This document shows positions 2,909 to 49,056 of a DNA stretch of 51,218 bases, in pieces; position 1 is the stretch's first letter; each line of letters begins with the position of its first letter. Below the pieces are notes generated by a model, which was given only the letters and a program-made list of their open reading frames with translations, did not search any database and was not told the origin of the DNA. The DNA lies in the IMG/VR virus record IMGVR_UViG_3300036790_000100, positions 1 through 51,218 of that record; one strand, given 5' to 3'. The DNA is from a virus. Lineage: Duplodnaviria; Caudoviricetes. The translations under genes were made by a program, and so were the position numbers.

Positions 2909-3562
2909 GTGAGCGCCTACGCGAAGCTGCGCCGCCGGCGGCAGGTCTTTGTCGATGCCTATGTGAAAACAGGCGTCGGCGCCGATGCGATCCGGGCGAT
3001 CAACCCGCTGCTCAAGCGCCCGGATGTGGCGGCATCGAAGATGCTGGCCAACCCGGAGGTGAAGGCGGCGATCGCCGAGAAGCAGGCGCAGGCGATCGCA
3101 CGCGCCGGGGCTCGCGAAGTGCGCGTGATCGAGGAGCTGTGCCACCTGGCATTCTTCGATCCGGGCGAGCTGCAGGATGAGAACGGCCACTATCTGCCGT
3201 TGAATCAACTGCGCCCCGAAGTGCGTCGGGCGCTGCAGTCGATCGACGTCGAGGACAAGTTCGAGGGCACCGGCGACGCACGGCGCGTGGTCAGCCGCCG
3301 GCACCGCTACAAGGGCAGCACCAAGGAAGGCGCGCTCAAGATCCTGCTGCAGTACATGAAGGCGCTGCCCGAACAGGTGCAGGTCTCAGGTCCCGGCGGC
3401 GGTCCGATCGAGACGCGCAGCGAGGTGACCGACCTTGAGAAAGCCCGGCGCATCGCCTTCCTTCTGACCATGGGCCTTAAGGCGAAGCCCACCACCCCAT
3501 TGAGCGACCCGGCCGAGCCGGTCGCACCAGTTTCCGCCGACGGCAACGCCGGCGGAGTTTGA
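2909..3562 (+). CDS. terS: Terminase small subunit
   Basis: RRQVFVDAYV..AIRA..AASKMLANPEVKAAI..VIEEL..LAFFD pattern and VSGPGGGPIET tail, typical of the Terminase_2 family. Confidence 0.85.
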   Translation: MSAYAKLRRRRQVFVDAYVKTGVGADAIRAINPLLKRPDVAASKMLANPEVKAAIAEKQAQAIARAGAREVRVIEELCHLAFFDPGELQDENGHYLPLNQLRPEVRRALQSIDVEDKFEGTGDARRVVSRRHRYKGSTKEGALKILLQYMKALPEQVQVSGPGGGPIETRSEVTDLEKARRIAFLLTMGLKAKPTTPLSDPAEPVAPVSADGNAGGV

Positions 3563-3605
3563 CGATCTCCACCAAGCCAATCAGCACCAAGCAGGAGACA
3601 CCTCA

Positions 3606-4524: not shown

Positions 4525-6129
4525 ATGGATCTGGACCAGGTGCTCAAGGCCCTCGAGGGATTGCCGCCTGGCCAGCGCGCGCAGCTCGAGGAGACTGCGC
4601 TGGATGACACAGCGAGCATGCGCTGGGTCCCAAACCCCGGCCCACAGACCGAGGCCTATTTCTCCGAGGCAGATGAGCTTTACTACGGCGGCGAGGCCGG
4701 CGGCGGTAAATCTGATCTGATCCTTGGCCTGGCGCTCAACTGCCACCAGCGCGCCTCGATCTTCCGTGAGTTCAAGGACGACGCGCGCGAGCTCGGCCGC
4801 CGTCTGTGCCAGATCACCGGCAACACCATCGGCTGGAATGATCAGCAGGCCCGCTGGCGATCGGGCCCGCAGGAGTTCATCTTCGACGGCCTGCCGCTGG
4901 AGACGGACAAAGAACACCACAAGGGCAAGGCGCGCGACCTGCACGCCTTTGATGAGATCCCGGACTTCACCGAGTCGCAGTACCTGTTCATCACCGGGTG
5001 GAATCGGTCGGCATCCCCTGGTCAAAGGTCGCGCATCGTGTGCACCGGCAACCCGCCGACGCGCGCGAAGGGCCTGTGGGTCATCAAGCGTTGGGGTGCG
5101 TGGCTTGATCCACGCCACCCGAACCCGGCCCGCGACGGAGAGCTGCGCTGGTACATCCGCGGCGATGATGGCCACGAGGTCGAGGTGGACGGGCCCGGCC
5201 CCTACCAGGTCGATGGCAAGGACACCTTCGCGAAGTCGCGCACCTTCATCCGCGCGAAGCTCGAGGACAATCCTGACCTCGCCAACAGCGGCTACGATGC
5301 CCAGCTCGCCCAGCTGCCCAAGGAGCTGCGCGATGCCTACCGCGGCGGCAAGTTCGATGCGTCGCTGAAGGATCACCCGTTCCAGGTGGTGCCAACGCAG
5401 TGGGTCCTGGATGCGCAGAAGCGCTGGAGCGAACGGCCGCCGCAGGGCGTACCGATGTGCGCGATGGGAGTGGATCCGGCCGAAGGCGGCGCCGACAACT
5501 ACACCATCGCGGTCCGCTACGATGGCTGGTACGGCCCGTACATTTCGATCCCCGGTGTCGAGATCCGCTTGGGGTCGCAGGGCGCAGGGCACATCATCAC
5601 CAATCGCCGCAACAACGCGGACATCGTGCTCGACATGGGCGGCGGCTACGGTGGTGGCACCTTCCAGACCCTCACCGAGAATCAGATCCCGGTGACGGTG
5701 TACAAGGGCGCCAACAAATCCTACGCGCGCACCGAGACCAAAAAGCTCGGCTTCGTCAACAAGCGCACCGAGGTCTACTGGCGATTCCGCGAAGCCCTCG
5801 ATCCGGACCAGGTGGGCGGCTCACCGATCTGCCTGCCGCCGGATCCGGAGATCGTCAGCGATCTGACCGTGGTCACCTGGGAAGTCACCGCCCGTGGCAT
5901 CAAGATCCTGGAGAAGGATGAGGTGAAGAAACTCCTCGGCCGATCGCCAGACAAGGGCGACGCCACAGTGCTCGCCTGGGCCGCAGGCCTGCGCGGTGTG
6001 AACCCGCATTTCGGTACCGGCCAGTTCGGCCGCGAGCAGCACATCCCGTTACCCGGTCAGCGTCGAGGACCAGGCGGCGGATTCAAAGTTGATCTAGGCC
6101 CGCGGCATCGAGCCCCGGGAAGGAAGTAA
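4525..6129 (+). CDS. terL: Terminase large subunit
   Basis: PNPGPQ, Walker A YGGEAGGGKS, Walker B FDE, TGNPP motif, nuclease motifs GVDPA and SPDKGDA. Confidence 0.95.
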   Translation: MDLDQVLKALEGLPPGQRAQLEETALDDTASMRWVPNPGPQTEAYFSEADELYYGGEAGGGKSDLILGLALNCHQRASIFREFKDDARELGRRLCQITGNTIGWNDQQARWRSGPQEFIFDGLPLETDKEHHKGKARDLHAFDEIPDFTESQYLFITGWNRSASPGQRSRIVCTGNPPTRAKGLWVIKRWGAWLDPRHPNPARDGELRWYIRGDDGHEVEVDGPGPYQVDGKDTFAKSRTFIRAKLEDNPDLANSGYDAQLAQLPKELRDAYRGGKFDASLKDHPFQVVPTQWVLDAQKRWSERPPQGVPMCAMGVDPAEGGADNYTIAVRYDGWYGPYISIPGVEIRLGSQGAGHIITNRRNNADIVLDMGGGYGGGTFQTLTENQIPVTVYKGANKSYARTETKKLGFVNKRTEVYWRFREALDPDQVGGSPICLPPDPEIVSDLTVVTWEVTARGIKILEKDEVKKLLGRSPDKGDATVLAWAAGLRGVNPHFGTGQFGREQHIPLPGQRRGPGGGFKVDLGPRHRAPGRK

Positions 6130-8611: not shown

Positions 8612-9751
8612 ATGCCAGAAGCAGCAACAGGAGCAACAGGTGCCACAGGATCCGCAGCGACGGGCGCGACGGGTGCCACGGGCACCGGAACAGGCACAGG
8701 TACTGGGACAGGCACCGGAACCGGCACAGGCGCCGGCGGGGCTACAGGATCAGCCGCAGGTAATGGCGGCGGCACGGGCGGCAGCCAAACGGGGACGGGG
8801 ACTGGAACGGGCACGGGCACGGGCACGGGTACGGGTACGGGTACGGGCGCCGATGCAGCAGCTGCCGCGGCCGCAGCCGCAGCCGCCGCTGCGGGTGGTG
8901 GCACAGGCACGGGTACCGGCACCAGTGCGGCCGGTGCGGAAGCCTGGGCCGCGAATTGGCGCGAGACCTATGCCGGTGAGGATGCCGCGAAGCTGAATGT
9001 GCTCAAGCGCTATGAGTCGCCGCGGGCGCTCATGGATGCGCTGTTCTCGGCGCGGCAGAAGATCGAGTCGGGGGAGCTCAAAACCCCGCTGCCGGCGAAC
9101 GCGACGGCCGAGCAGCTCGCCACCTTCCGCAAGGACAATGGCATCCCGGACAAGCCGGAGGACTATTTCTCGAACCTGCCGGACGGGGTGAAGATCGATG
9201 ACGCCGACAAGGTGATGCTCGGCGACTACGCCAAGACGATGCACGAGTTGAACCTGACGCCGGCGCAGGCGCAGAAGCTGTTCGCGACCCGCCAGGCCCA
9301 GCTCGACAAGATGATCGTGGACCAGGGCGCGCAGGACAACACGCTCAAAACTCAGGTCGAGGATCAGCTGCGCGGGGAATGGGGCAATGACTACCGGCCC
9401 AACCTCAACGCGATCCACAACCTGCTGAACGGCTTCCCAGAAGGTGCGCGTGAGGCGCTGCTGAATGCCCGCGGACCGGACGGCAAGGCGATCTTCAACA
9501 ACAAGGAGGTCATGCAGGCGTTTGCACAGATCGCCCGCACCGTGAGCCCCTTCGGTACCATCACCGGCGCCGACGGTGGCGCGCTGAATGCGAGCGGCGT
9601 CGAGTCGCGCATGGCGGAGATCGTGAAGATGATGGGCGCGCCGAAGGGCACGCCGGAGTACAAGGCCTACTACGAAAACCCGAAGGTGCAGGCCGAGTAC
9701 CGTGACCTGATCTCAGCGCAGGAGCGGTTGAAAGCCCGCAGCGCGGCGTAG
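8612..9751 (+). CDS. Capsid scaffolding/assembly protein
   Basis: Low-complexity N-terminus, [17 protein letters not shown] and L..EWG.DY motifs; upstream of the capsid gene. Confidence 0.8.
8625..8935 (+). repeat. Coding (Thr-Gly)n / poly-Ala low-complexity repeats
   Basis: ACNGGN hexamer runs encoding TGTGTG and GCN runs encoding poly-Ala. Confidence 0.9.
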
Positions 9752-14852: not shown

Positions 14853-17696
14853 ATGCCCACCGAAAATCAAGCCACCCTCGCCTTCAACCGCGGGGTGCTG
14901 TCCACCCTTGGCTTAGCGCGTACCGATATCACCCGGTATCGCATGTCCGCCGAGGTCATGACCAACTGGATGGCCCGCGTGCTCGGCAGCATGATGCTGC
15001 GCGCCGGCGTGGGCTATGGCGGCGGTTCGCTGGGCAACGCCTTCGCGAAGTCGATCCCCTTCGTGTTCGCGGCAAGGGACACCGCGCGCCTGGAAATGAC
15101 CCCCGGGGCGATGCGCGTGTGGGTGAATGATGCGCTGATCACCCGGCCCGTGGTGAGCACGGCGGTGACCAACGGTACTTTCATCGGCAGCACCGCCGGC
15201 TGGACCGACAACAGCCAGGCCGGCTGCACCGTCACCTGGAACGGCAACTCGAACGTCTCCTTCGTCGGCACCGGCCCCTTGGGCAACAACGCGATCCTCG
15301 ACCAGGAGCTCACGGTCAACAATGACGGTAGCCAGACGCTGCGCAACGCGCTACGCATCATCGTCCTGCGCGGTCCGATCACCCTGCGCCTGGGCACCAG
15401 CGAAGGGGATGACAGTCTCATCAATGAGACGATCCTCAACCAGGGCACACATTCGCTGGCCTTTACACCGGGCGGTGCGACGGTGTGGGTCCGCTTCCAG
15501 GCCTCCGGCCAGCAACAGTCGATCCTGGGCTCGTGCGTCATCGAAGGCGCCGGTGTCATGCAGCTTCCGGCGCAATGGGCGGCAGTTGATCTTCCAAACC
15601 TGCGTTGGTCACAGTCGGCGGACGTGATCTATATCGGCTGCACGAGCGCTGCCGGCGGCTATGAGCAGCAGCAGGTCGAACGGCGCGCCACCGATTCCTG
15701 GTCGATGGTCTCCTACTTTGAGACCGCAACCCTTGGGCCCTTCCGCGCGATCAACATCACGAATGTGACGCTGACCCCAAGCGGGGTGACCGGGGATATC
15801 ACCCTCACCGCCAGCAATCCGCTGTTCAAACCCGGTCACGTGGGCGCGCTGTTTCGGCTGCTGTCGATCGGCCAGGTGGTGACGGCCGCGCTCGCCGCGG
15901 CGAACGTGTACACCGATCCGATCCTGGTGACCGGCGTTGGCGCGCAGCGTGCGTTGCAGTTGACCGCCACCGGCACTTTCTCCGGGGAGCTGGTGCTGCA
16001 GTACTCAGTTGGCGCACCTGGCACCTGGATCGACCAGGCGCCCCCGCCGCTCGCATTCCCGCTCAACTACAGCTACGTGGACGGCCTGGACAATCAGACC
16101 ATCTACTACCGCATCGGGATCCTGCCCGGGGATTACACCTCCGGGACGGCCAATGTGTCGCTCGCGATTCCGACCGGCTCGATCACCGGCATTGCGCGCG
16201 TGACCGGCTACCAAAGCAGCACAGTGGTGAACGCGGCCGTGCTCGAGGCCTTGGGGTCTACCGCGGCGACGGCCAACTGGTACGAGGGCGCCTGGTCAGC
16301 TTTCCGCGGCTTCCCGGCGACCAATCAGCTGTGGCAGGGAAGGCTGTGGTGGTTCGGCGTATCGATCTTTGGCTCGGTGTCGGACGACTACAATAATTTC
16401 GATGACACGGTGATCGGGGATTCCGCGCCGATCGTGGGACAGCTCGACGCCGGCGCGGTCGAGAACGTCTACTGGGCCGTGGCGCTGCAGCAGCTCGTCA
16501 TCGGCACCGCCTCGGCCGAGACCTCCGCTCGATCGACGTATTTGGGCGATCCGATCACACCCACGAACTTCAACATCTTGACCGGCAGCACGCAGGGCTC
16601 GGCCTTCGTGAATGCCGTGCAGGTGGACCTGGCCGGCATCTTCGTGCAGATCACCGGCAGCCGCGTGTTCTCACTGAACCTCGATATCTATACATACAGT
16701 TATAAGTCGCAGGAACTCACGCTCATGTGCCCGGACTTCAACGCTGCGGGCATCGTCGGCATCGCGCTGCAGAACAAGCCGGATCGACGCCTGCACTGCT
16801 GGCGCACCGATGGCACCGTCGGCGTCATGGTCTATGACCCGACCGAGAACGTGAATTGCTGGCTCGAGGTGGCGATCGGCGGCAACGGCTTTGTCGAGGA
16901 TGTGTGCGTGCTGCCCGGCTCCGGCATCCCGGAGGATCAGGTCTACTACACCGTGCGGCGCACGATCAACGGCCAGACGGTGCGCTACTTCGAGAAGTGG
17001 GCGCTCGAGCAGGACTGCACCGGCCTCATGGTGTGCAAGTGCATGGACTCCTTCGTGGAGTACTCAGGCGTCGGCACCACCAACCTGCCGCAGATCGCAC
17101 CTCATCTGCCCGGTCAGACCGTGTGCGTATGGGGCTGGAACGCGGTGAACCCGTACACCGATGGGAACGGCAACCAGGTGGGCGTGGATCTGGGCACCTA
17201 TCTGGTCGCGGCCGACGGCTCGGTCACCGGCCTGCAGCTCAACAACGCCCCCTACTTCGTGACCGATGCGGTGGTGGGCCTGCCGTACACCGCGCAGTGG
17301 CAGTCGATGAAGCAGGCCTTCGCCGCGGCGATGGGCACGCCATTGAACCAGCCCAAGCGCATCAGCCGGCTCGGCATGGTGCTGCAGAACACGCACAGCC
17401 AGGGGATCCTCATGGGCCCCGACTTCGATCACCTGGACAGCATCCCGCAGGAGGATATCCCACAGATCCTGGTCCAAGGCACCGCCGACACCACGACCCA
17501 GACGGCCGACTCGACCGGGAATATCGACACCGAGTTTGAAATGCCGGACCTCAACACGGTGTTCACCGAGTACGACACGCAGATGACCGCCTTCAATGAC
17601 ATCTGGTCCACCGACTCGCGCGTGTGCCTGCAGGCCGCATCCCCGCGGCCATGCACTGTTCTCGCCTTCACCGTAGGGATGACTGACAATGGTTGA
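14853..17696 (+). CDS. Tail tubular protein B (nozzle)
   Basis: 947 aa; AFNRGVLS start, IPFVF, QSADV, GFP....WQGRLW, VGLPY, SPRPCTVL end. Confidence 0.88.
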   Translation: MPTENQATLAFNRGVLSTLGLARTDITRYRMSAEVMTNWMARVLGSMMLRAGVGYGGGSLGNAFAKSIPFVFAARDTARLEMTPGAMRVWVNDALITRPVVSTAVTNGTFIGSTAGWTDNSQAGCTVTWNGNSNVSFVGTGPLGNNAILDQELTVNNDGSQTLRNALRIIVLRGPITLRLGTSEGDDSLINETILNQGTHSLAFTPGGATVWVRFQASGQQQSILGSCVIEGAGVMQLPAQWAAVDLPNLRWSQSADVIYIGCTSAAGGYEQQQVERRATDSWSMVSYFETATLGPFRAINITNVTLTPSGVTGDITLTASNPLFKPGHVGALFRLLSIGQVVTAALAAANVYTDPILVTGVGAQRALQLTATGTFSGELVLQYSVGAPGTWIDQAPPPLAFPLNYSYVDGLDNQTIYYRIGILPGDYTSGTANVSLAIPTGSITGIARVTGYQSSTVVNAAVLEALGSTAATANWYEGAWSAFRGFPATNQLWQGRLWWFGVSIFGSVSDDYNNFDDTVIGDSAPIVGQLDAGAVENVYWAVALQQLVIGTASAETSARSTYLGDPITPTNFNILTGSTQGSAFVNAVQVDLAGIFVQITGSRVFSLNLDIYTYSYKSQELTLMCPDFNAAGIVGIALQNKPDRRLHCWRTDGTVGVMVYDPTENVNCWLEVAIGGNGFVEDVCVLPGSGIPEDQVYYTVRRTINGQTVRYFEKWALEQDCTGLMVCKCMDSFVEYSGVGTTNLPQIAPHLPGQTVCVWGWNAVNPYTDGNGNQVGVDLGTYLVAADGSVTGLQLNNAPYFVTDAVVGLPYTAQWQSMKQAFAAAMGTPLNQPKRISRLGMVLQNTHSQGILMGPDFDHLDSIPQEDIPQILVQGTADTTTQTADSTGNIDTEFEMPDLNTVFTEYDTQMTAFNDIWSTDSRVCLQAASPRPCTVLAFTVGMTDNG

Positions 17697-41652: not shown

Positions 41653-42251
41653 GACTGCAGGCTCCGGCAAACCCACTCTGGCACCTCGATATCCAGGCGC
41701 CGATTCGGCCGGCGCACTTCGCGGTGCAGGACGATATGTCGCAGGAGGGACATTTCCATCCACACATCGTTGAGGCAGTAGTTGATGACGCGGCCGCGCT
41801 GCCCGCGCTGCCACCAGATCGGCGCCATCGCGCCGTCGCCAGTCTTGTTGATGCGCAGCGTCTCTCCGCACACCGCATCAAGTCCCCATCCGCCATGCGT
41901 CGCCGGCTGAAACCGATCCGGGTCCAGGCCCTGCGCCACCCAGATCTGCTCGAGCATGTCGTAATGCAGCTCGTCATTCAGCTGCAGGCCGTGCTCCTCG
42001 AGGAGCGGCTTGTCGAAGCGGCGCGTGTTGAAGCCGGCGGTCGCCCGGTTGGTGAGGTAGCCCTGCAGCTCCTGCAGGTCCTCTTTGAGCCAGGCGCCGG
42101 TGAGGCCGGTCACCAGGTCATAGGTGCACACCACGGTGATGCCCATGCCCTTGAAATCGCGCCAGCCCTCGCAGTACTGGATGTCCGGGTGGCGCACCTG
42201 CCCGCGATAGGGCGGGATTGCTTTCTCGATTTCGACGTCGACCACGATCAT
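41649..42251 (-). CDS. RNase H-like / DEDD 3'-5' exonuclease
   Basis: VVDVE, GFN...FD..LL, L..V...L...KTG.G..A...W, YCLNDV. Confidence 0.8.
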   Translation of the reverse strand: MIVVDVEIEKAIPPYRGQVRHPDIQYCEGWRDFKGMGITVVCTYDLVTGLTGAWLKEDLQELQGYLTNRATAGFNTRRFDKPLLEEHGLQLNDELHYDMLEQIWVAQGLDPDRFQPATHGGWGLDAVCGETLRINKTGDGAMAPIWWQRGQRGRVINYCLNDVWMEMSLLRHIVLHREVRRPNRRLDIEVPEWVCRSLQS

Positions 42252-43708
42252 GTCGTTTCCTCCGCTGTGGTGGTTTCTTCTGCATCGCGCGCGTGGCCGT
42301 CCTCAATGACGAAGCCGATCTTGCCGCTGGCATCGACCCGCTCGATCCACACCTGGAACTTCCGGTCCTTGGCCTTCGCCTCCAGGATCTTCATGCTGTC
42401 CGGATCCAGCAGCGAGCCGTCGCGGATCCGGATCACGCGCAGCTTCGGGCTCATGGCCATGGCGATATCGCACGAGGCGGCGAGCTGCTCGGCATCCGAG
42501 CCCTGGTTGAATGGCACGCCATTGAGCAGCACCTCCTCATCCCCGAAGCCGATGCCGGTGACCGGGATCTGCGCCGCGGCGATCGCGGTGTTCTTCTCCG
42601 CCTCCCGATCGGTGATCTTCTTCGTGAGCGCCTTGGACTCCAGCTCCAGGCGTGCGGCGTTCTGCTCGTGCACGTTGCGCTGGCGCAGCCGCTCGGCCTG
42701 CGCGTTGGCGGCGGTGGCAGCATCGATGCGCTTGGCCAAGGCCTCCGTGTCGATCGGCGCCGGGAGCACCTCGGCCTCATCCAGCTGCTTTTGCGCCTCG
42801 GCCGCCGCAGTTTCAAACTCCTGCGCATTGCGCTCGACCTGCGCCTGGTGCTGCTCCAGCTCGTGTTTCTCGCCGGCGTCCAGGCTATCGAGCTTCAGCC
42901 GCTCGTTCGCAATCTCCGCCTCGAGCTCCTGGATCCTGGCGCGCAGCTCAGCGGCGTGCGAGGCGTAGCGCTTGGCGATCTGATCAATTCCGACGGCGCT
43001 GCTCTCCCGGATCTGCGCGGCGCGGTTGCGCGATGCCACGACACCTTCCGCGATCGCCTGGCGCCGGACCTTCCGGGTCTCGATCGAGGTGTTGAAGCCG
43101 CCGGCCTCGCCGAGCTGCTCGACCAGGGCCTTCACGTCCACCAGGTCGGTGGTGGTGCCTTCGGGCACGACGATCACGGCCGCGGCGCCGCGTTGCTCCT
43201 CGGCCGCCCGGTTGATGTCCTGGCGGCGCGTGTAGTCGCCACGGTTGGCGTCGGCGATCGCCTTGAAGTCAACGCCCGGCACAAAGCGCTTCAGCTGGTC
43301 GTACTGCTCGCGCGGCTTCATGCGGGCGAACTCGAGCGGATCGAAGGTCAGCGCGCCGAAGAATGCATCGAGCATCTTCTGCGGGGACTTGTACATCGCC
43401 CCGTCCGGGCTCTCCACGGTGATCGAGGTGGTGAGCTCCCCGCCGGCCCTGATCTTGAAGGTACGAGTAACGATGAGCTCAGGCTGTCCATCGCCGAGCA
43501 CCAGGATGATGCTGCCTTCTTGGTTCCCCTTTCTGATCGGTGTGGACTGGATCGCATCCTTGCCGTCGAGCGCCCACCAGATGCTGTCGAGTACCGAGGT
43601 TTTCCCGTTGCCGTTTTTGCCCGTGATCTGGACCAGGTTGCCACGCGGCTTTATCTGGACAGCGACGATCCGCTTGATGTTCTCAGCCTGAAAATTAATT
43701 ATTTGCAC
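42248..43708 (-). CDS. SMC/Rad50-like (AAA_23) coiled-coil ATPase
   Basis: Walker A GKNGNGKTS, long coiled coil, signature-like QGSDAEQ, Walker B/D-loop IRIRDGSLLD. Confidence 0.9.
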   Translation of the reverse strand: MQIINFQAENIKRIVAVQIKPRGNLVQITGKNGNGKTSVLDSIWWALDGKDAIQSTPIRKGNQEGSIILVLGDGQPELIVTRTFKIRAGGELTTSITVESPDGAMYKSPQKMLDAFFGALTFDPLEFARMKPREQYDQLKRFVPGVDFKAIADANRGDYTRRQDINRAAEEQRGAAAVIVVPEGTTTDLVDVKALVEQLGEAGGFNTSIETRKVRRQAIAEGVVASRNRAAQIRESSAVGIDQIAKRYASHAAELRARIQELEAEIANERLKLDSLDAGEKHELEQHQAQVERNAQEFETAAAEAQKQLDEAEVLPAPIDTEALAKRIDAATAANAQAERLRQRNVHEQNAARLELESKALTKKITDREAEKNTAIAAAQIPVTGIGFGDEEVLLNGVPFNQGSDAEQLAASCDIAMAMSPKLRVIRIRDGSLLDPDSMKILEAKAKDRKFQVWIERVDASGKIGFVIEDGHARDAEETTTAEETT

Positions 43709-43712
43709 AAAA

Positions 43713-43777
43713 TCACCCTACCGTGCCTTAGCCCACCTGGCCCCGCCTTGCGCGGCCCCGGTCTGCCATGCCACGCC
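43713..43777 (-). ncRNA. GGY-NN pentamer array downstream of the RAMP-like gene (putative guide RNA, 13 units)
   Basis: + strand reads tcacc ctacc gtgcc ttagc ccacc tggcc ccgcc ttgcg cggcc ccggt ctgcc atgcc acgcc. 10 of 13 units are exact NNRCC, and the array fills the intergenic gap. Confidence 0.8.
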
Positions 43778-43781
43778 GAAA

Positions 43782-44402
43782 TTATTTGAGACGCTCGAAA
43801 CGCGTGAGGTCGAACCTGCCATAGGTCGGACGGAAGTCACCCACCCCGATGAGCCGGCCGGCGATGCCGAGCAGCTCGCGCAGGAAGATCTCGTCCACAT
43901 ACTCAGGTAAGTTCACCATCAGATCGAACTGAGCCTTCCAGCCGGCACGCATTGCAGGCCGAACGCGCGTGATCGCACTGCGCTGGATCACGACACGGCG
44001 AGCATCCTCATAGTCCCAATCCTTCACGCCCAGCGGTGCAAGTGGCGTAAGGGAAATCACACCAGCCTTCACCAGGTCCATGGCGCTCTTGCGCGGGCTG
44101 CGCGGATCCTGGCGGAACTTGGCCGCATTGACGACAGCGCCGCGTAGATACTCTCCGGGGAGGCACAGGCCACCCTTGGCATCGCGGTACACATAGCTCT
44201 CAACGTTGTCCGTCTTTTTGCTCGCAGAACCTTTGCGTGCTGCGGCCTTCTCGGCGACAGCTTCGTTATTCCAGCGATGAAACAGAAGGTCCGCGCTGCC
44301 GGTGATCTGCACCCTGGCAGTCCACGGCTCGCTCAGCTCGATCTGTTCCTTCGCACCATTGGTCGCGTCAGCAATGCTGACGACTTTCGCAGCCTCTTTC
44401 AT
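43782..44402 (-). CDS. Stand-alone RAMP/Cas7-like RNA-binding protein (Vipr-like)
   Basis: N-terminal strand V.ITG..DLLFH, LPGEYLRGAV (RAMP IPG.S.KG equivalent), RVRP thumb, C-terminal Gly-rich loop AG.LIGVGDFRP.YGRF; AAGGAAGG RBS; no other cas genes. Confidence 0.75.
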   Translation of the reverse strand: MKEAAKVVSIADATNGAKEQIELSEPWTARVQITGSADLLFHRWNNEAVAEKAAARKGSASKKTDNVESYVYRDAKGGLCLPGEYLRGAVVNAAKFRQDPRSPRKSAMDLVKAGVISLTPLAPLGVKDWDYEDARRVVIQRSAITRVRPAMRAGWKAQFDLMVNLPEYVDEIFLRELLGIAGRLIGVGDFRPTYGRFDLTRFERLK

Positions 44403-44425
44403 TGAACACCTTCCTTATAAAAACG

Positions 44426-44630
44426 GAACCTTACCCAACCCAACCCAGCACCGGCTCGCTAGGCCCGATCCGATCACACCTCACCGCACCGCGGATTGCC
44501 CCGCATGGCCATGCCACACCAAAACTTGCCCCACTCCGCCCGGCCGTAGCTCGCCTAACCATGGCGCGTCAAGCGGTGCCATACCATGCTCGACCTAACC
44601 GGACCTTTCCCCGTCCAGGCTTGACTCGCC
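44426..44630 (-). ncRNA. GGY-NN pentamer array upstream of the RAMP-like gene (41 in-phase units)
   Basis: Strict 5-nt period over 205 bp: 23 of 41 units exact NNRCC on the + strand, 17 more with one mismatch. Confidence 0.8.
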
Positions 44631-44638
44631 TAATTCAA

Positions 44639-44698
44639 GAGGCATGCAGTGCCAGGCCACACCGAACCACAGCATTGCTAGCCCGACACTGCCGTACC
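44639..44698 (-). ncRNA. Third GGY-NN pentamer block (12 units, shifted phase)
   Basis: gaggc atgca gtgcc aggcc acacc gaacc acagc attgc tagcc cgaca ctgcc gtacc; 7 exact units; separated from the long block by the AT-rich linker TAATTCAA. Confidence 0.7.
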
Positions 44699-44702
44699 AG
44701 AT

Positions 44703-45809
44703 TCATAATTTACCGCCCTCGGCCAGCGCTTCCTTCTTCTCGACGTAGGCGGCATGCACGGCGTTCGGGATCTCCCGGGTGCTCGCGGCGTAGTCGGTCC
44801 ACACCTTCGTCTTGATCAGCTCCAGTTGCTTGAGCGTGGTGCTGGCGCGCAGCTCGAAGGCAGCCGTGTCATCCGAGTAGTACGGCACGTAGTTGCTGGA
44901 CGGCTTCTTGTCTGGCTCCTTGGCCGCCGCCGGCGTCACTTCCTGTTTTGCTTCCGGTTTTGAGGCCGCGGCCGCGGGCTGCTCGGCCGCCTTGCGCAGT
45001 GCCTCCTTGGCGGCATCCGCGCGGCTCGCCGGGGTCGCGCCCTCCAGCTGCGGGAAGGACTCATCCACCGTCGCATCGCCCTCCTTGATCGCAGTCTTGA
45101 TGCCAGTGAGCAAGGTGAGCTGATCGATGCCGATGTCAGCTTCTCCGGTCACCTCGAGCACCGCGAACACGCGCGCCTGGTCGATGCCCAGCTTGCGGAT
45201 CCAGTCCATGACCTGGCCGCGGCGCTTGGCCAGCGTCGTCGCATCCCCGATCGCCACGCGCCGCGCCTCGGTCTCGAGTTTGCGGCACAGCGCCTTCGGC
45301 ACCACCGTGAAGGTCGCATCGCGGCGGGCCTTCGCCAGGCACGCCTTCGCCACCACCACGCGCATGCGCTCGCTGTAGGGCTTGTTGTACTTGTCCACCG
45401 TGGACTCGATGACCTCCGATTCGCTGGCGAAGTTGGTCTCCAGGTCGTGCGCGTAGCCCTTGGCCTTCACGTAGCGCGGCGTCATTTCCACGATCATCGC
45501 GCCCACGCGCAGGTTGCCGTAGCAGCCGCCGACGATCTCGGCCATGCGGATCGACATGCCTTCGGCGAACTTGCCGCCGCCGACGGGCCGGCTGTACAGG
45601 CACGACTCGGCCGTCTCCTCATCGAGCGTCACCATTTCGAGCGCGCGCTTCTGGAACTTGGCGATCGATCGCGGGTAGGCATGGGCGGTGGCGATCTGCC
45701 GATCGATCTGCGCATCGGTGATCGACTTCAGCGCCTGGTTCACGCTGTCCTGGACGGAGACGATCTCCCCGGTGTCGCCGTCGATGACCTGGCTGCCTTC
45801 GGTGCTCAT
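44703..45809 (-). CDS. Putative single-strand annealing/recombination protein (partner of YqaJ)
   Basis: IDRQIATA..YPRS..EG.SIR.AE...GNL core with flexible C-terminal tail; coupled to the YqaJ gene. Function inferred from position only. Confidence 0.55.
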   Translation of the reverse strand: MSTEGSQVIDGDTGEIVSVQDSVNQALKSITDAQIDRQIATAHAYPRSIAKFQKRALEMVTLDEETAESCLYSRPVGGGKFAEGMSIRMAEIVGGCYGNLRVGAMIVEMTPRYVKAKGYAHDLETNFASESEVIESTVDKYNKPYSERMRVVVAKACLAKARRDATFTVVPKALCRKLETEARRVAIGDATTLAKRRGQVMDWIRKLGIDQARVFAVLEVTGEADIGIDQLTLLTGIKTAIKEGDATVDESFPQLEGATPASRADAAKEALRKAAEQPAAAASKPEAKQEVTPAAAKEPDKKPSSNYVPYYSDDTAAFELRASTTLKQLELIKTKVWTDYAASTREIPNAVHAAYVEKKEALAEGGKL

Positions 45810-46861
45810 GAGTTTTCGGTCTCCTGAAGTGTGATGATCTCGATGTTGCGGTTGCAGTCCGGGCAGAACTTGCCGCTCGCCCCATCGATGGCGCGGACCC
45901 AGGCGACGGCGTGCGGGTGCAGGCAGTCTCCCTTCAACTTGTTGAGGAACGGCCGGGCGCCGGCGCGCTCCTTCAAGTACTTCGGGTAGAGCGTCGGGTG
46001 CTCGAAGGCGAACTTGTCCACGTCGAACACGTTGGAGGCTTTGTTCTGCCGCCAGGTCACAAGCGGCGCGCCGGTGACGTCGACCAGCTCGCTGATCGTG
46101 CCCATGACGGACTTCACCGCGAGCTCCAGTTCCTCCTTCTCGGCCTCGAACTGTTTGATGTTGGCGCGCACGCGGTGGTGGCGCTGCAGGGCCTCGAGTG
46201 TCTCCGGGGTGATCTTCGCCTTGGTGCCCTTCGCATCCTTCGGCCAGGCGATCTTCGCATCCTCGAGGCTCACGGCCGCCGGCGGCGACTTGGCTTCCAC
46301 CAGGTCCCAGAACGCGCGCTGCTGCCGGGTGAGCAGCTGGATCAGTTCCTCATCGCGCTGGATGCGGTAGAGCCGGAACTGCCGGTTGGTGATGATCAGC
46401 GGCATCCACGCATGCTCAAGGCCCGTGCAGGCCATGCCGTGCTGACACTGCAGCAGGTACTGCATCGGCACCGAGCCATCCTCCAGCGGATCGCCCCAAT
46501 CATCAGGGGACGCAAAGCCGGTGCTCTTGGCCTCGACCAGTCCCATATCGGAGCTGATGCCATCGAGCGTGACCCAGCGACGCGGCCACTGCGGATCCAC
46601 CACCTTGCGCTGCCGATCGGTGACCTGGAACTTCGTGCGAAACGTGAAGCGCGAGAGCGCCACCGGCTCAAGCGCAATGCCCATTTCCAGGTGCAGCGCC
46701 AGCTCCTCCTCGGTGTCCGGATCGGCGACCACCTCGCTGCCCATCTTCTCCATGAACAGCTGCAGCTGGGTTTTCCAGGGGCTCAGACCCACGGACGCGG
46801 CGGCCTCGGATGCGCCGAGACCCGTGCGGCGCTCAGCGAGCTCCGCTTCGGTGAACTTCAT
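45806..46861 (-). CDS. YqaJ / lambda-exonuclease family recombinase nuclease
   Basis: RR.GLGASE..G.SPWKT..L, G..LEP, TLDG...VEAK, YLLQCQH.M.CTG. Confidence 0.92.
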   Translation of the reverse strand: MKFTEAELAERRTGLGASEAAASVGLSPWKTQLQLFMEKMGSEVVADPDTEEELALHLEMGIALEPVALSRFTFRTKFQVTDRQRKVVDPQWPRRWVTLDGISSDMGLVEAKSTGFASPDDWGDPLEDGSVPMQYLLQCQHGMACTGLEHAWMPLIITNRQFRLYRIQRDEELIQLLTRQQRAFWDLVEAKSPPAAVSLEDAKIAWPKDAKGTKAKITPETLEALQRHHRVRANIKQFEAEKEELELAVKSVMGTISELVDVTGAPLVTWRQNKASNVFDVDKFAFEHPTLYPKYLKERAGARPFLNKLKGDCLHPHAVAWVRAIDGASGKFCPDCNRNIEIITLQETENS

Positions 46862-48148: not shown

Positions 48149-48168
48149 ACGTGTGGGACCCGGCTCTG

Positions 48169-49056
48169 ATGGTCGATCTGCCGAGGCCACCGATCGATCC
48201 GGACGTGGACCTCCGGAACTTCCCCTACCTTCCGCTCGATGTGGTAAGGCTCCGCGACAGCGACCTGGCGGCCTCGCCGCACCCCGAAGTTTTCCGCTGC
48301 GCGGTGCTCAGCTGGTGTGTCGCCTGGCACCAGACGCCAGCCGGCAGCCTGCCAGACGATGACGTGATTCTCGCCAGGCTGCTTGGCTATGGTAGAGACA
48401 TCAGAGGGTGGCAACGCATCCGCAAGAAGGGTGGTTTGCGTGGCTGGGCGCTTCATTCTGATGGTCGGTTGTACCATCCCGTTGTGGTGGAAAAGGCTAT
48501 AGAATCATGGCTTAAGAACAAGTCCAACCGGGCTAAAACGGAGGCGGCACGGCTGGCTAAACTCAAGCTGTCACAAGGTCAGTCACAACCTCTGTCACAG
48601 AGCCTGTCACTACCACTGTCACAGACGGAATCTTCCACTGTCACTGGATCCAAGGGAAGGGAAGGGATAGGAAGGGAAGAGAAGGGAAGGGACGTCGGAC
48701 CCTCCGTAGGTGCCCGTGACGCTCCTCCGGAGCCACCCACGCCGGATGAGAACCGGCGCGTGTTCCTGGCCTGCAAGTCCAAGTACCCCGGAGGGCTGCA
48801 CCGTGGCGATCACTGGCTGCTCGCCGAGCGCGAGATTGGGCTGAGGCTCGATGAGGGCACGCCAGGTGACGCGCTGATCGGGAACACTGAGGCCTATTGC
48901 GCTCAGCAGGAAGCCTTGGGCACGATCGGGACCGAGCGGGTGATGCGGCCGAATAATTTTTACAACGGCTCCGGCGCCTGGCGCGGTCCGTTCCCGCTGC
49001 CGGTCGCGAAGTCCAATCGAGCATCTGACCGAATCACTTACGTGCCGGAGGAGTGA
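48169..49056 (+). CDS. DUF1376 (YdaU-like) replication initiator
   Basis: DLRNFPYLPLDVVRLRDS..WHQ.PAGSLPDDD..LA.L..GW....DGRLYHPVV.EKA; internal iterons; C-terminal YP/FYN domain. Confidence 0.85.
   Translation: MVDLPRPPIDPDVDLRNFPYLPLDVVRLRDSDLAASPHPEVFRCAVLSWCVAWHQTPAGSLPDDDVILARLLGYGRDIRGWQRIRKKGGLRGWALHSDGRLYHPVVVEKAIESWLKNKSNRAKTEAARLAKLKLSQGQSQPLSQSLSLPLSQTESSTVTGSKGREGIGREEKGRDVGPSVGARDAPPEPPTPDENRRVFLACKSKYPGGLHRGDHWLLAEREIGLRLDEGTPGDALIGNTEAYCAQQEALGTIGTERVMRPNNFYNGSGAWRGPFPLPVAKSNRASDRITYVPEE
48568..48685 (+). repeat. Putative replication origin: C(T/A)GTCAC iterons plus purine tract
   Basis: Copies at 48568, 48580, 48592, 48604, 48616 (12-bp period) and 48638, followed by GGGAA repeats. 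Confidence 0.7.

What the first reader, a model, noticed from the sequence alone, without database searches (positions are those of the whole stretch)
43592..43777. Downstream array decodes to the Walker A motif of the neighbouring ATPase family, skipping the wobble base
Seen: the NN pairs 5'-3' on the - strand are GT AT AG GG CG AA GG CA GG AA AC AG GA. With one free base after each they allow V-I-S-G-R-N-G-Q-G-K-T-S-(D/E), a canonical GxNGxGKTS P-loop. The next gene, starting 5 bp away, has QITGKNGNGKTSV at 43592-43630 (CAG ATC ACG GGC AAA AAC GGC AAC GGG AAA ACC TCG GTA). That gives 7 of 13 pairs matching fully and 3 half, and its Ser is TCG where the guide specifies AG. Inference: the guide reads DNA as NN-x-NN-x, targets the orthologous ATPase gene of a competing related phage at codon positions 1-2 (so most synonymous changes do not allow escape), and spares this phage's diverged allele.
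Basis: partly seen in the sequence, partly recalled or inferred. Interest (0 to 1): 0.95.

Follow-up and report, generated by a model that had tools for sequence, protein, structure and literature searches.

The report
Phage VIPR guide RNA targeting ATPase P-loop
The repeat array is a guide RNA of a recently described phage-borne VIPR system, and its variable bases spell the ATP-binding-loop codons of the same ATPase family in other phages while matching this phage's own copy poorly.

Summary
It describes a system published in 2026 preprints, VIPR (Viral Interference Programmable Repeat).

- **System identity:** The gene at 43782-44402 (-) encodes a Vipr homologue. A profile of it hits PDB 36pp 'SUSP1 Vipr protein' at E 9e-12, and its predicted fold is Cas7/Csm3-like. 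Both GGY-NN arrays that flank it are vrRNA arrays.
- **Association:** 79 of 80 related viral loci carry such arrays on the gene's strand.
- **The guide:** The 13-unit array at 43713-43777 (-), read by the published 1-nt-skip rule, matches the phage's own Walker A codons at only 17 of 26 bases (65%). That is below the published 80% target threshold, and 79 of 2000 shuffled guides do as well in that gene.
- **External targets:** Among 80 orthologous ATPase loci, the best site is mostly the in-frame Walker A. Six loci reach at least 21/26, and the maximum is 23/26. No unit shuffle out of 1000 reached 23. Skips of 0, 2 and 3 nt gave maxima of 20, 18 and 18.
- **Near-perfect hits:** An exact search with units 2-12 found 8 metagenome and 3 viral contigs. 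All are in frame on 'xISGRNGQGKTSx' and score 23-25/26.
- **The ATPase is not an accessory gene:** none of the 80 Vipr loci has it nearby.

This is a new member of a known kind. RNA expression and binding are untested.

The parts
43713..43777 (-). Downstream vrRNA guide array: 13 units of GGY-NN. It starts 4 nt after the vipr stop codon and ends 4 nt before the ATPase start. The last unit, GGTGA, doubles as a likely Shine-Dalgarno sequence.
   Evidence: external targets
43782..44402 (-). vipr gene (206 aa), a RAMP/Cas7-like protein that would polymerise on the GGY-NN repeats, one protomer per unit
   Evidence: PHROG phrog_4652. Profile A1 against PDB 36pp_D 'SUSP1 Vipr protein', E 9e-12. hhalign to phiSUSP1 ALH47069 gives 98% probability. 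AF2 pLDDT 87. Top Foldseek hits are Cas7/Csm3.
44426..44630 (-). Upstream vrRNA array, block B: 41 units in one register, many of them degenerate. Probably several guides. It ends 23 nt before the vipr ATG.
   Evidence: no target found in 1.87 Mb of held loci
44644..44698 (-). Upstream vrRNA array, block A: 11 units, separated from block B by a 13-nt AT-rich spacer
43592..43630 (-). Own Walker A codons (QITGKNGNGKTSV). This is the homologous but non-target site, at 17/26 = 65% guide identity.
42248..43708 (-). SbcC/RecF-like AAA_23 ATPase (phrog_1499). It is a phage recombination/replication-module gene, not a VIPR accessory gene.
   Evidence: (0 of 80 Vipr loci have a homologue within 3 kb)
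44188..44219 (+). Site within the window's vipr (antisense of codons 62-72, KKTDNVESYVY) that matches a vrRNA of another phage (L049) at 21/22
43813..43841 (+). Site within the window's vipr (antisense of the G-loop codons 188-197, GDFRPTYGRF) that matches a vrRNA of another phage (L030) at 20/20

Best explanation
The window is a complete-looking 51-kb tailed-phage genome. It carries a minimal VIPR cassette, one vipr gene flanked by GGY-NN arrays, inserted in its recombination module between an SSAP-like gene and an SbcC-like ATPase gene.

The proposed mechanism follows the published SUSP1 work; none of its steps was shown for this phage. Vipr protomers would bind the transcribed array one per pentamer, burying GGY and presenting each NN. 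The filament would then pair the NN dinucleotides with double-stranded DNA, skipping every third target base, and block transcription.

The 13-unit downstream array is a guide whose NN string spells codon positions 1-2 of V-I-S-G-R-N-G-Q-G-K-T-S. This is the Walker A loop of the phrog_1499 ATPase family as it occurs in other phages. Synonymous third-base changes therefore give no escape. The phage's own allele (QITGKNGNGKTSV, with Ser as TCG) differs at 9 of 26 informative bases and is predicted to be spared.

- **Shown here:** the homology, the array anatomy, the code statistics, the natural near-perfect targets, and the low self-match.
- **Inferred from the papers:** RNP assembly, DNA binding and silencing.
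For: - **Vipr homology and fold:**. The GGY-contacting residues of SUSP1 Vipr (H17, R138, D177, W178, R179, E71, K82; numbering from bioRxiv 10.64898/2026.04.26.720927, Results read) align to H42, R148, D189, F190, R191, E84 and K95. All are invariant or at least 90% conserved in 43 homologues.
- **Arrays go with the gene:** 79 of 80 Vipr loci have same-strand arrays, across GC 0.38-0.71. The unit profile over 4441 units has position 3 as C or T in 95%, and positions 4-5 near uniform.
- **Code:** the 1-nt skip is reproduced.
- **Target:** searches give 6 of 80 loci at 21/26 or better, a maximum of 23, 0 of 1000 shuffles at 23, and only 2 of 1000 reaching 21. Other skips give maxima of 20, 18 and 18.
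- **Near-perfect hits:** searches give 11 contigs at 23-25/26, all in frame. Their third codon bases vary among the hits.
- **Internal control:** one search shows that 33 ten-unit windows of the upstream arrays give at most 2 hits at 17/20 or better each, whereas windows of this array give 18-41 hits, the listed ones at the Walker A site.
- **Family consensus:** [EQ]ITG[KR]NGQGKTSV in 120 homologues.
- **No self target:** nothing in the genome reaches 80% (maximum 18/26).
Against: - No exact 13-unit target exists in viral contigs. The best hits are 25/26, always missing the last base.
- No hit for units 2-12 in 185,579 reference genomes.
- The target ATPases are distant (24-43% identity), so an actual co-infecting rival is not identified.
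- No 3' tail or pseudoknot, promoter, terminator or ribozyme was found, so biogenesis of a discrete vrRNA is unshown.
- The ATPase-locus set is phylogenetically related, so its hits are not independent events.
- The 80% threshold is a bioinformatic convention of the papers, not a measured binding limit.
Confidence: 0.8

Rival explanations
1. The array is mainly a cis-acting element of the polycistronic mRNA. A Vipr filament on the 13 units would cover the GGTGA Shine-Dalgarno sequence 4 nt upstream of the GTG and throttle ATPase translation. Alternatively, the RNP would bind the phage's own Walker A region weakly as feedback. On this view the external matches merely reflect family conservation.
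For: The array abuts the start codon, and its last units look like the ribosome-binding site. The same is seen in L001, L002 and L004. No separate 3' tail was found. Another phage's guide (L030) matches its own vipr at 18/20, so some self-directed regulation in this clade is conceivable.
Against: The guide matches foreign alleles at 88-96% but the phage's own at 65%. It departs from the own allele exactly where the family consensus differs (R against K, Q against N). A purely cis role does not need NN bases that spell a P-loop; 0 of 1000 shuffles reach 23/26. This rival is compatible with the main explanation as a second function.
Confidence: 0.1
2. The guide is aimed at a host or prophage chromosomal ATPase gene (RecF-, RecN- or SbcC-like) rather than at competing phages.
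For: GxNGQGKT-type Walker A loops occur in cellular RecF/SMC-like ATPases (recalled, not tested). Published VIPRs often target resident prophages and, via satellite vrRNAs, host repeats.
Against: The exact 11-unit pattern has 0 matches in one genome for each of 185,579 species. It has 3 in IMG/VR viral contigs and 8 in metagenome contigs. Where the match is full length, these encode homologues of the phage ATPase. One of them (L172) also has a YqaJ-like exonuclease gene nearby.
Confidence: 0.05
3. Coincidence: a G-rich dinucleotide string happens to resemble a glycine-rich loop.
For: The self-match alone is unremarkable: 79 of 2000 shuffles match it in the gene, and 1424 of 2000 do so genome-wide.
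Against: Composition-preserving shuffles do not reproduce the external matches. The upstream-array windows do not either. Only the 1-nt skip works.
Confidence: 0.03

Closest known systems
VIPR (Viral Interference Programmable Repeat) systems. The type II examples are Escherichia phage SUSP1 and a Pseudomonas fulva prophage. Sources: bioRxiv 10.64898/2026.04.26.720920 (Results, Discussion and three Methods sections read), 10.64898/2026.04.26.720927 (Results read), 10.64898/2026.10.15.759431 (abstract and two sections read).
   Same: - A roughly 200-aa RAMP-like Vipr with conserved GGY-binding residues.
- Same-strand GGY-NN pentamer arrays flanking the gene.
- Array length of 13 units, within the reported 9-16.
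- The 1-nt skip falls on the wobble base.
- Targets lie in other mobile elements, and the self-match is below 80%.
- vipr genes themselves are targets of foreign guides.
   Different: - Only about 30% identity to SUSP1 Vipr over residues 30-200.
- No conserved accessory (vap) gene in 80 loci of this clade.
- Arrays of up to more than 700 nt sit directly between ORFs of an operon.
- No detectable 3' tail, pseudoknot or hammerhead.
- The target is the Walker A loop of a phage ATPase. The words Walker, ATPase and P-loop do not occur in the main text of the first paper, and Walker and ATPase do not occur in the third. Their supplementary target tables could not be seen.
- The VIPR type (I-VII) could not be assigned from the text available.
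Class 1 CRISPR-Cas backbone proteins (Cas7/Csm3 of types III and VII) with crRNA
   Same: RRM/RAMP fold with thumb and glycine-rich loop. The top Foldseek hits are 8z4j_J, 6ifl_F and 9ash_F, at E about 1e-6 and TM 0.53-0.59. The protein forms a helical backbone on a guide RNA and periodically disrupts the guide-target duplex.
   Different: The period is 5 nt on the RNA against 3 nt on the DNA, instead of 6 against 6. There is no CRISPR repeat-spacer array, cas1/cas2 or effector nuclease in the window. The guide information is non-contiguous.
TRAP with its (G/U)AG-NN RNA site, and the TMV coat protein with its G-every-third-base assembly origin (both recalled, not tested)
   Same: One protein subunit per short periodic RNA unit.
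   Different: Those use the periodic triplet only for protein binding. Here the spacer bases carry target information.

Membership tests
VIPR system | Vipr protein: a RAMP homologue with RRM core, G-loop and thumb | tested here: met
   Profile against PDB 36pp_D 'SUSP1 Vipr protein', E 9e-12. hhalign probability 98%, 167 columns. AF2 pLDDT 87.2. 126 Foldseek PDB hits at E<=1e-3; the listed top-ranked hits are Cas7/Csm3/gRAMP chains.
VIPR system | Residues that hold G1, G2 and Y3 of each repeat (SUSP1 H17, R138, D177, W178, R179, E71) | tested here: met
   They align to H42, R148, D189, F190 (aromatic kept), R191 and E84, all invariant or at least 90% conserved in alignment A1. The bundle residues K33 and R39 do not align to basic residues, so that part is inconclusive.
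VIPR system | Tandem GGY-NN (YNNGG) pentamer arrays next to vipr, on its strand, with hypervariable NN | tested here: met
   in the window. 79 of 80 related loci. Over 4441 units, position 3 is C/T in 95% and positions 4-5 are near uniform.
VIPR system | 9-16 repeats per vrRNA | tested here: met
   The downstream array has 13 units and upstream block A has 11. Block B has 41 units with unknown internal boundaries.
VIPR system | Targets obey the 1-nt skip rule, with the skip on the codon wobble position and on either strand | tested here: met
   for this guide, which is in the sense orientation. for the clade: antisense examples with the skip on the third codon base, and 0 hits at skip 0 or 2.
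VIPR system | No self-target at 80% NN identity or better | tested here: met
   For this guide the genome maximum is 18/26 = 69%. Ten-unit windows of the upstream arrays give one own-genome hit of 17/20, at 16337, which is within the chance expectation.
VIPR system | Conserved structured 3' tail (a pseudoknot in the SUSP1 clade) | tested here: not met
   The array ends 4 nt before the next start codon. The fold z-score is -0.55. There is no Rfam hit at E<=1, and relatives end the same way. The paper describes other architectures for other types, so this is a clade difference, not an exclusion.
VIPR system | Accessory vap gene beside vipr ('typically') | tested here: not met
   Besides vipr (80 of 80 loci) and its antisense shadow ORFs, the most widespread ORF cluster is present in only 16 of 80 loci. 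The ATPase is absent from all 80. The paper lists six vap genes for seven types.
VIPR system | vrRNA is expressed, co-purifies with Vipr, and the RNP binds and silences a 1-nt-skip DNA target | not testable with these tools
   This needs small-RNA sequencing, pull-down, EMSA and a reporter assay.
CRISPR-Cas (class 1) | CRISPR repeat-spacer array plus cas1/cas2 or other cas genes | tested here: not met
   No repeat-spacer array in the tandem-repeat scan. No Rfam CRISPR direct-repeat hit. The neighbours are YqaJ, the phrog_3657 protein, an AAA_23 ATPase and ParB.

The most novel reading that the evidence does not exclude
In this vap-less Vipr clade, guides may be selected to hit the codons of near-universal catalytic motifs. 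Examples are the Walker A loop of SbcC-like ATPases, helicase motif I (PTGGGKT), and the G-loop and KKTD motifs of rival Vipr proteins. One 11-13-unit guide would then interfere with whole protein families across phages only 24-43% identical: motif-level, broad-spectrum interference rather than lineage-specific targeting. The carrier would escape through the few conservative or six-fold-codon changes that alter codon positions 1-2 (Ser AGY to TCN, Arg to Lys, Gln to Asn). In addition, the arrays are embedded in operon mRNA without a tail, and their last units serve as ribosome-binding sites. This implies a different vrRNA biogenesis and a coupling of guide loading to translation of the downstream gene.
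Probability: 0.35. Interest if true: 0.6.

Novelty: new member of a known kind. Interest (0 to 1): 0.45.

Why it matters
The finding places an uncultivated soil-metagenome phage in the VIPR family and supplies a clean natural guide-target pair outside the Escherichia and Pseudomonas systems studied so far.

- **Independent check of the rule:** the 1-nt-skip rule is reproduced here on a distant Vipr clade.
- **Choice of target:** a guide can be aimed at the most constrained codons of a gene, the P-loop, where escape by amino-acid change is costly and synonymous change is useless.
- **Self versus non-self:** the phage's own allele differs at 9 of 26 informative bases. One of the differences is a Ser codon-family switch.
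- **Both sides of the conflict:** the phage's own vipr is a predicted target of guides carried by other phages.
- **Annotation:** long 'non-coding' G-rich intergenic tracts next to phrog_4652 genes can now be annotated as vrRNA arrays.

Tried and rejected
**Hypotheses dropped**

- Before the PDB hit I considered a TRAP-like or coat-protein-like RNA operator, two-tier G-quadruplexes, SSAP or ssDNA phasing sites, Chi-like arrays, iterons and a partition site. All were dropped once the flanking gene proved to be a Vipr homologue.

**Searches that found nothing**

- Rfam at gathering scores over the whole window: no match. At E<=1 over 43600-44800: no match either, so no hammerhead.
- No tRNA.
- blastn of 43560-44760 against 50,697 phage records: no match.
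- First literature search on pentanucleotide repeats: nothing relevant.
- The search for related loci with the single ATPase protein: 43 pattern matches, none confirmed. Repeated with alignment A2.
- Exact 13-unit pattern in viral contigs: 0.
- 80 Vipr loci scanned for the guide: no site at 8/13 units or better at any skip. These loci turned out to hold no ATPase homologue, so this was not a test of the claim.
- Upstream-array guides (33 ten-unit windows) against 1.87 Mb of held loci and the window: only 4 scattered 17/20 hits, about what chance gives. No target identified.
- A database-wide search for the upstream guides was not run. It would have required typing derived patterns.
- The look-up of sequencing runs: one DNA holder that may be the source sample, and no RNA holder listed.

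**Limits on the literature**

- The papers' supplementary data (target tables, type assignments) were not available. They may already list this clade or P-loop targets.
- A fourth preprint, 10.64898/2026.10.21.760802, was seen only in a search listing.

**Rows dropped**

- L011 and L034 were left out of alignment A1 because of in-frame stops.
- A1 used 42 of the 80 loci, and A2 used 40 of the 120 listed homologues.
Full report
**What is there.** The window is the whole assembly, one contig of 51,218 bp at 64.5% GC. It is a tailed phage. PHROG hits include terminase large subunit, portal/adaptor, tail and virion structural proteins on the + strand. A - strand module holds a YqaJ/RecE-like exonuclease (45806-46861), a phrog_3657 protein (44703-45809), a phrog_4652 protein (43782-44402), an AAA_23/SbcC-like ATPase of phrog_1499 (42248-43708) and a ParB-like protein.

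Two stretches on the - strand, and nothing else in the genome, show a strict 5-nt periodicity of GG. The first is 43777-43713: 13 units beginning 4 nt after the stop of 43782-44402 and ending 4 nt before the ATPase GTG. The second is 44698-44426: 11 units, a 13-nt AT-rich spacer, then 41 units in one register, ending 23 nt before the ATG of 43782-44402.

**Check of the observation.** The NN pairs, the QITGKNGNGKTSV reading of 43630-43592, the count of 7 full and 3 half matches, and the TCG serine are all as stated. The self-match by itself is not impressive. 79 of 2000 unit-shuffled guides reach 17/26 within the ATPase gene. 1424 of 2000 reach it somewhere in the genome. The real guide's best own-genome site is 18/26, elsewhere in the genome at 37282.

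**What the arrays belong to.** A search of IMG/VR with the 206-aa protein returned 80 loci at 54-78% identity. In 79 of the 80, 5-nt GG-periodic tracts lie on the gene's strand, and by the listed coordinates they sit directly beside it. Some exceed 700 nt, and the loci span GC 0.38 to 0.71. The exception, L048, is cut at the gene's end.

Over 4441 units selected only for GG, the third base is C or T in 95%. The fourth and fifth bases are close to uniform. The only ORF cluster shared by all 80 loci is the gene itself. Besides that cluster and its antisense shadow ORFs, the most widespread cluster is in 16 loci, and none of the 80 has a homologue of the ATPase.

**Identity.** A profile of 43 homologues (A1) hit one PDB sequence, 36pp_D 'SUSP1 Vipr protein', at E 9e-12. 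hhalign to the phiSUSP1 protein ALH47069 gave 98% probability over 167 columns. The AlphaFold model (pLDDT 87.2) is closest to Cas7/Csm3 backbone subunits of type III and VII CRISPR complexes, at E about 1e-6.

The literature search then found three 2026 preprints that define VIPR systems. Their components are a Vipr protein and vrRNAs of 9-16 YNNGG repeats. GGY is held by the protein, and the NN dinucleotides pair with DNA while every third target base is skipped. The skipped base usually falls on the codon wobble position, and the targets lie in competing phages, satellites and other VIPR systems.

The SUSP1 residues reported to hold G1, G2 and Y3 align with H42, R148, D189, F190, R191 and E84 of the window protein. 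All are invariant or nearly so in A1. The SUSP1 upstream intergenic region read here shows the same GGY-NN units.

**Test of the specific claim.** The papers call a site a natural target at 80% NN identity or better, and report no self hit at that level. The own Walker A scores 65%.

The family's Walker A in 120 protein homologues is [EQ]ITG[KR]NGQGKTSV. The guide's CG (Arg) and CA (Gln) therefore fit the family better than the phage's own Lys and Asn do.

I fetched 80 ATPase-orthologue loci from IMG/VR with alignment A2. In most of them the best guide site on either strand is position 1579, in frame on the Walker A. Six of the 80 reach 21/26 or better: L143 at 23, L112 at 22, and L086, L099, L100 and L152 at 21. 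Sixteen reach 20 or better.

Controls on the same loci:
- Of 1000 unit shuffles, none reached 23 and 2 reached 21.
- Of 1000 base shuffles, 3 reached 21.
- Reversed unit order gave a maximum of 19.
- Skips of 0, 2 and 3 gave maxima of 20, 18 and 18.

The exact 13-unit pattern has no match in viral contigs. Units 2-12 as an exact pattern gave 8 metagenome contigs, 0 reference-genome contigs and 3 viral contigs. All 11 sites are in frame on V/E/T-ISGRNG(Q/H)GKTS-V/L and score 23-25 of 26. There are nine distinct 39-mers, which differ mainly at third codon positions and in the first and last codons. Where the alignment is long, the ORFs are homologues of the window ATPase at 24-43% identity. The one base never matched is the last, in the unit GGTGA, which probably also serves as the ribosome-binding site.

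As an internal control, 33 ten-unit windows of the upstream arrays gave at most 2 hits at 17/20 or better each in 1.87 Mb. Windows of this array gave 18-41 hits, the listed ones at the Walker A site.

**The code in this clade.** 1693 distinct 11-unit guide windows from L001-L080 were scanned against all held loci. They gave 71 hits at 20/22 or better with a 1-nt skip, none with skip 0 or 2, and 0, 0 and 1 in three shuffled sets. Most of these hits are in vipr genes of other loci, in antisense orientation, with the skipped base again on the third codon position.

Two of them hit the window's own vipr:
- The last 11 units of the L049 array match 44188-44219 at 21/22. L049's own vipr scores 16/22.
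- Ten units of the L030 array match 43813-43841 at 20/20. L030's own vipr scores 18/20.

Another L030 guide matches a PTGGGKT helicase motif in L170 at 20/22.

**How it most likely works.** The homology, array anatomy, code statistics, natural near-perfect targets and poor self-match are shown here. The rest is inferred from the SUSP1 work. The array would be transcribed with the operon. Vipr would coat it one protomer per pentamer. The filament would then form a gapped R-loop on a rival phage's ATPase gene at the P-loop codons and block its transcription. The phage's own allele differs at 9 of 26 informative bases, including both bases of the 3'-proximal unit 12, and would be ignored.

Biogenesis is open. 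No promoter, terminator, ribozyme or stable 3' structure was found. The arrays are bounded by AT-rich stretches.

**Comparison and novelty.** This is a VIPR system by every sequence-level criterion I could test. It differs from the characterised type II examples in four ways:
- It lacks a conserved accessory gene.
- It lacks a tail.
- Its long arrays are wedged between ORFs.
- Its target is a Walker A loop, which the main texts do not mention. The supplements were not visible.

Because the kind is published, I rate this a new member of a known kind with moderate interest.

**Limits.** The hits come from related gene families and from overlapping data sets, so counts of loci are not counts of independent events. 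No host is known. No RNA data exist for this phage (one search is reported under Tried and rejected). The 80% threshold is a convention, not a measured binding limit.

Noticed in passing
window 44188-44219 and 43813-43841 (inside vipr, + strand coordinates): The phage's own vipr gene is a predicted target of vrRNAs carried by two other viral contigs. L049 matches at 21/22 on the KKTDNVESYVY codons, and L030 at 20/20 on the G-loop GDFRPTYGRF codons. Both are antisense, with the skip on the wobble base.
   Followed up: yes
L030:3629-3678 against L030 vipr (about 3578, - strand): The L030 guide that hits other phages' vipr G-loop codons also matches its own vipr at 18/20 (90%), above the published 80% self/non-self line. 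This could be autoregulation, or a sign that the threshold is too simple.
   Followed up: partly
L030:3819 guide against L170 about 4219 (- strand): Another natural guide matches helicase motif I codons (VLFVLPTGGGKT) at 20/22. P-loops may be recurrent VIPR targets.
   Followed up: no
window 44426-44698 (-): The upstream arrays (11 + 41 units) have no identifiable target in the 1.87 Mb of loci held. Many units are degenerate (GTC, GCC, GAC, AGC, and so on), and internal vrRNA boundaries are unknown.
   Followed up: partly
window 43680-43712 (-): The 4 nt before the start codon and the first codons of the ATPase gene are markedly AT-rich in a 64% GC genome. AT-rich stretches also bound the other array ends (44631-44643, 44403-44425, 43778-43790). 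These are possible processing or initiation signals.
   Followed up: no
window 48568-48692 (+): Six GTCAC motifs about 12 nt apart are followed by (AAGGG)x8. Both lie inside ORF 48151-49056 (301 aa, low-complexity LSQ.../KGREG... segment). It has a 5-nt period, but the third base is A and the repeat is invariant, so it is not a vrRNA-like array.
   Followed up: partly
L011, L034, L044: The vipr homologues of L011 and L034 carry in-frame stop codons. L044 holds two vipr copies (3001-3576 and 5292-5867), each preceded by an array.
   Followed up: no
L028:2335-2931, L065:2682-2817, L033:3292-3401 (- strand): A few Vipr loci also have long GG-periodic arrays on the strand opposite to vipr.
   Followed up: no
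window 8623-8886 (+): Several 6-18-nt tandem repeats (ACGGGC x10 and others) lie inside ORF 8612-9751 (phrog_3742). This is a Gly/Thr/Pro-rich repeat segment of a structural-region protein.
   Followed up: no
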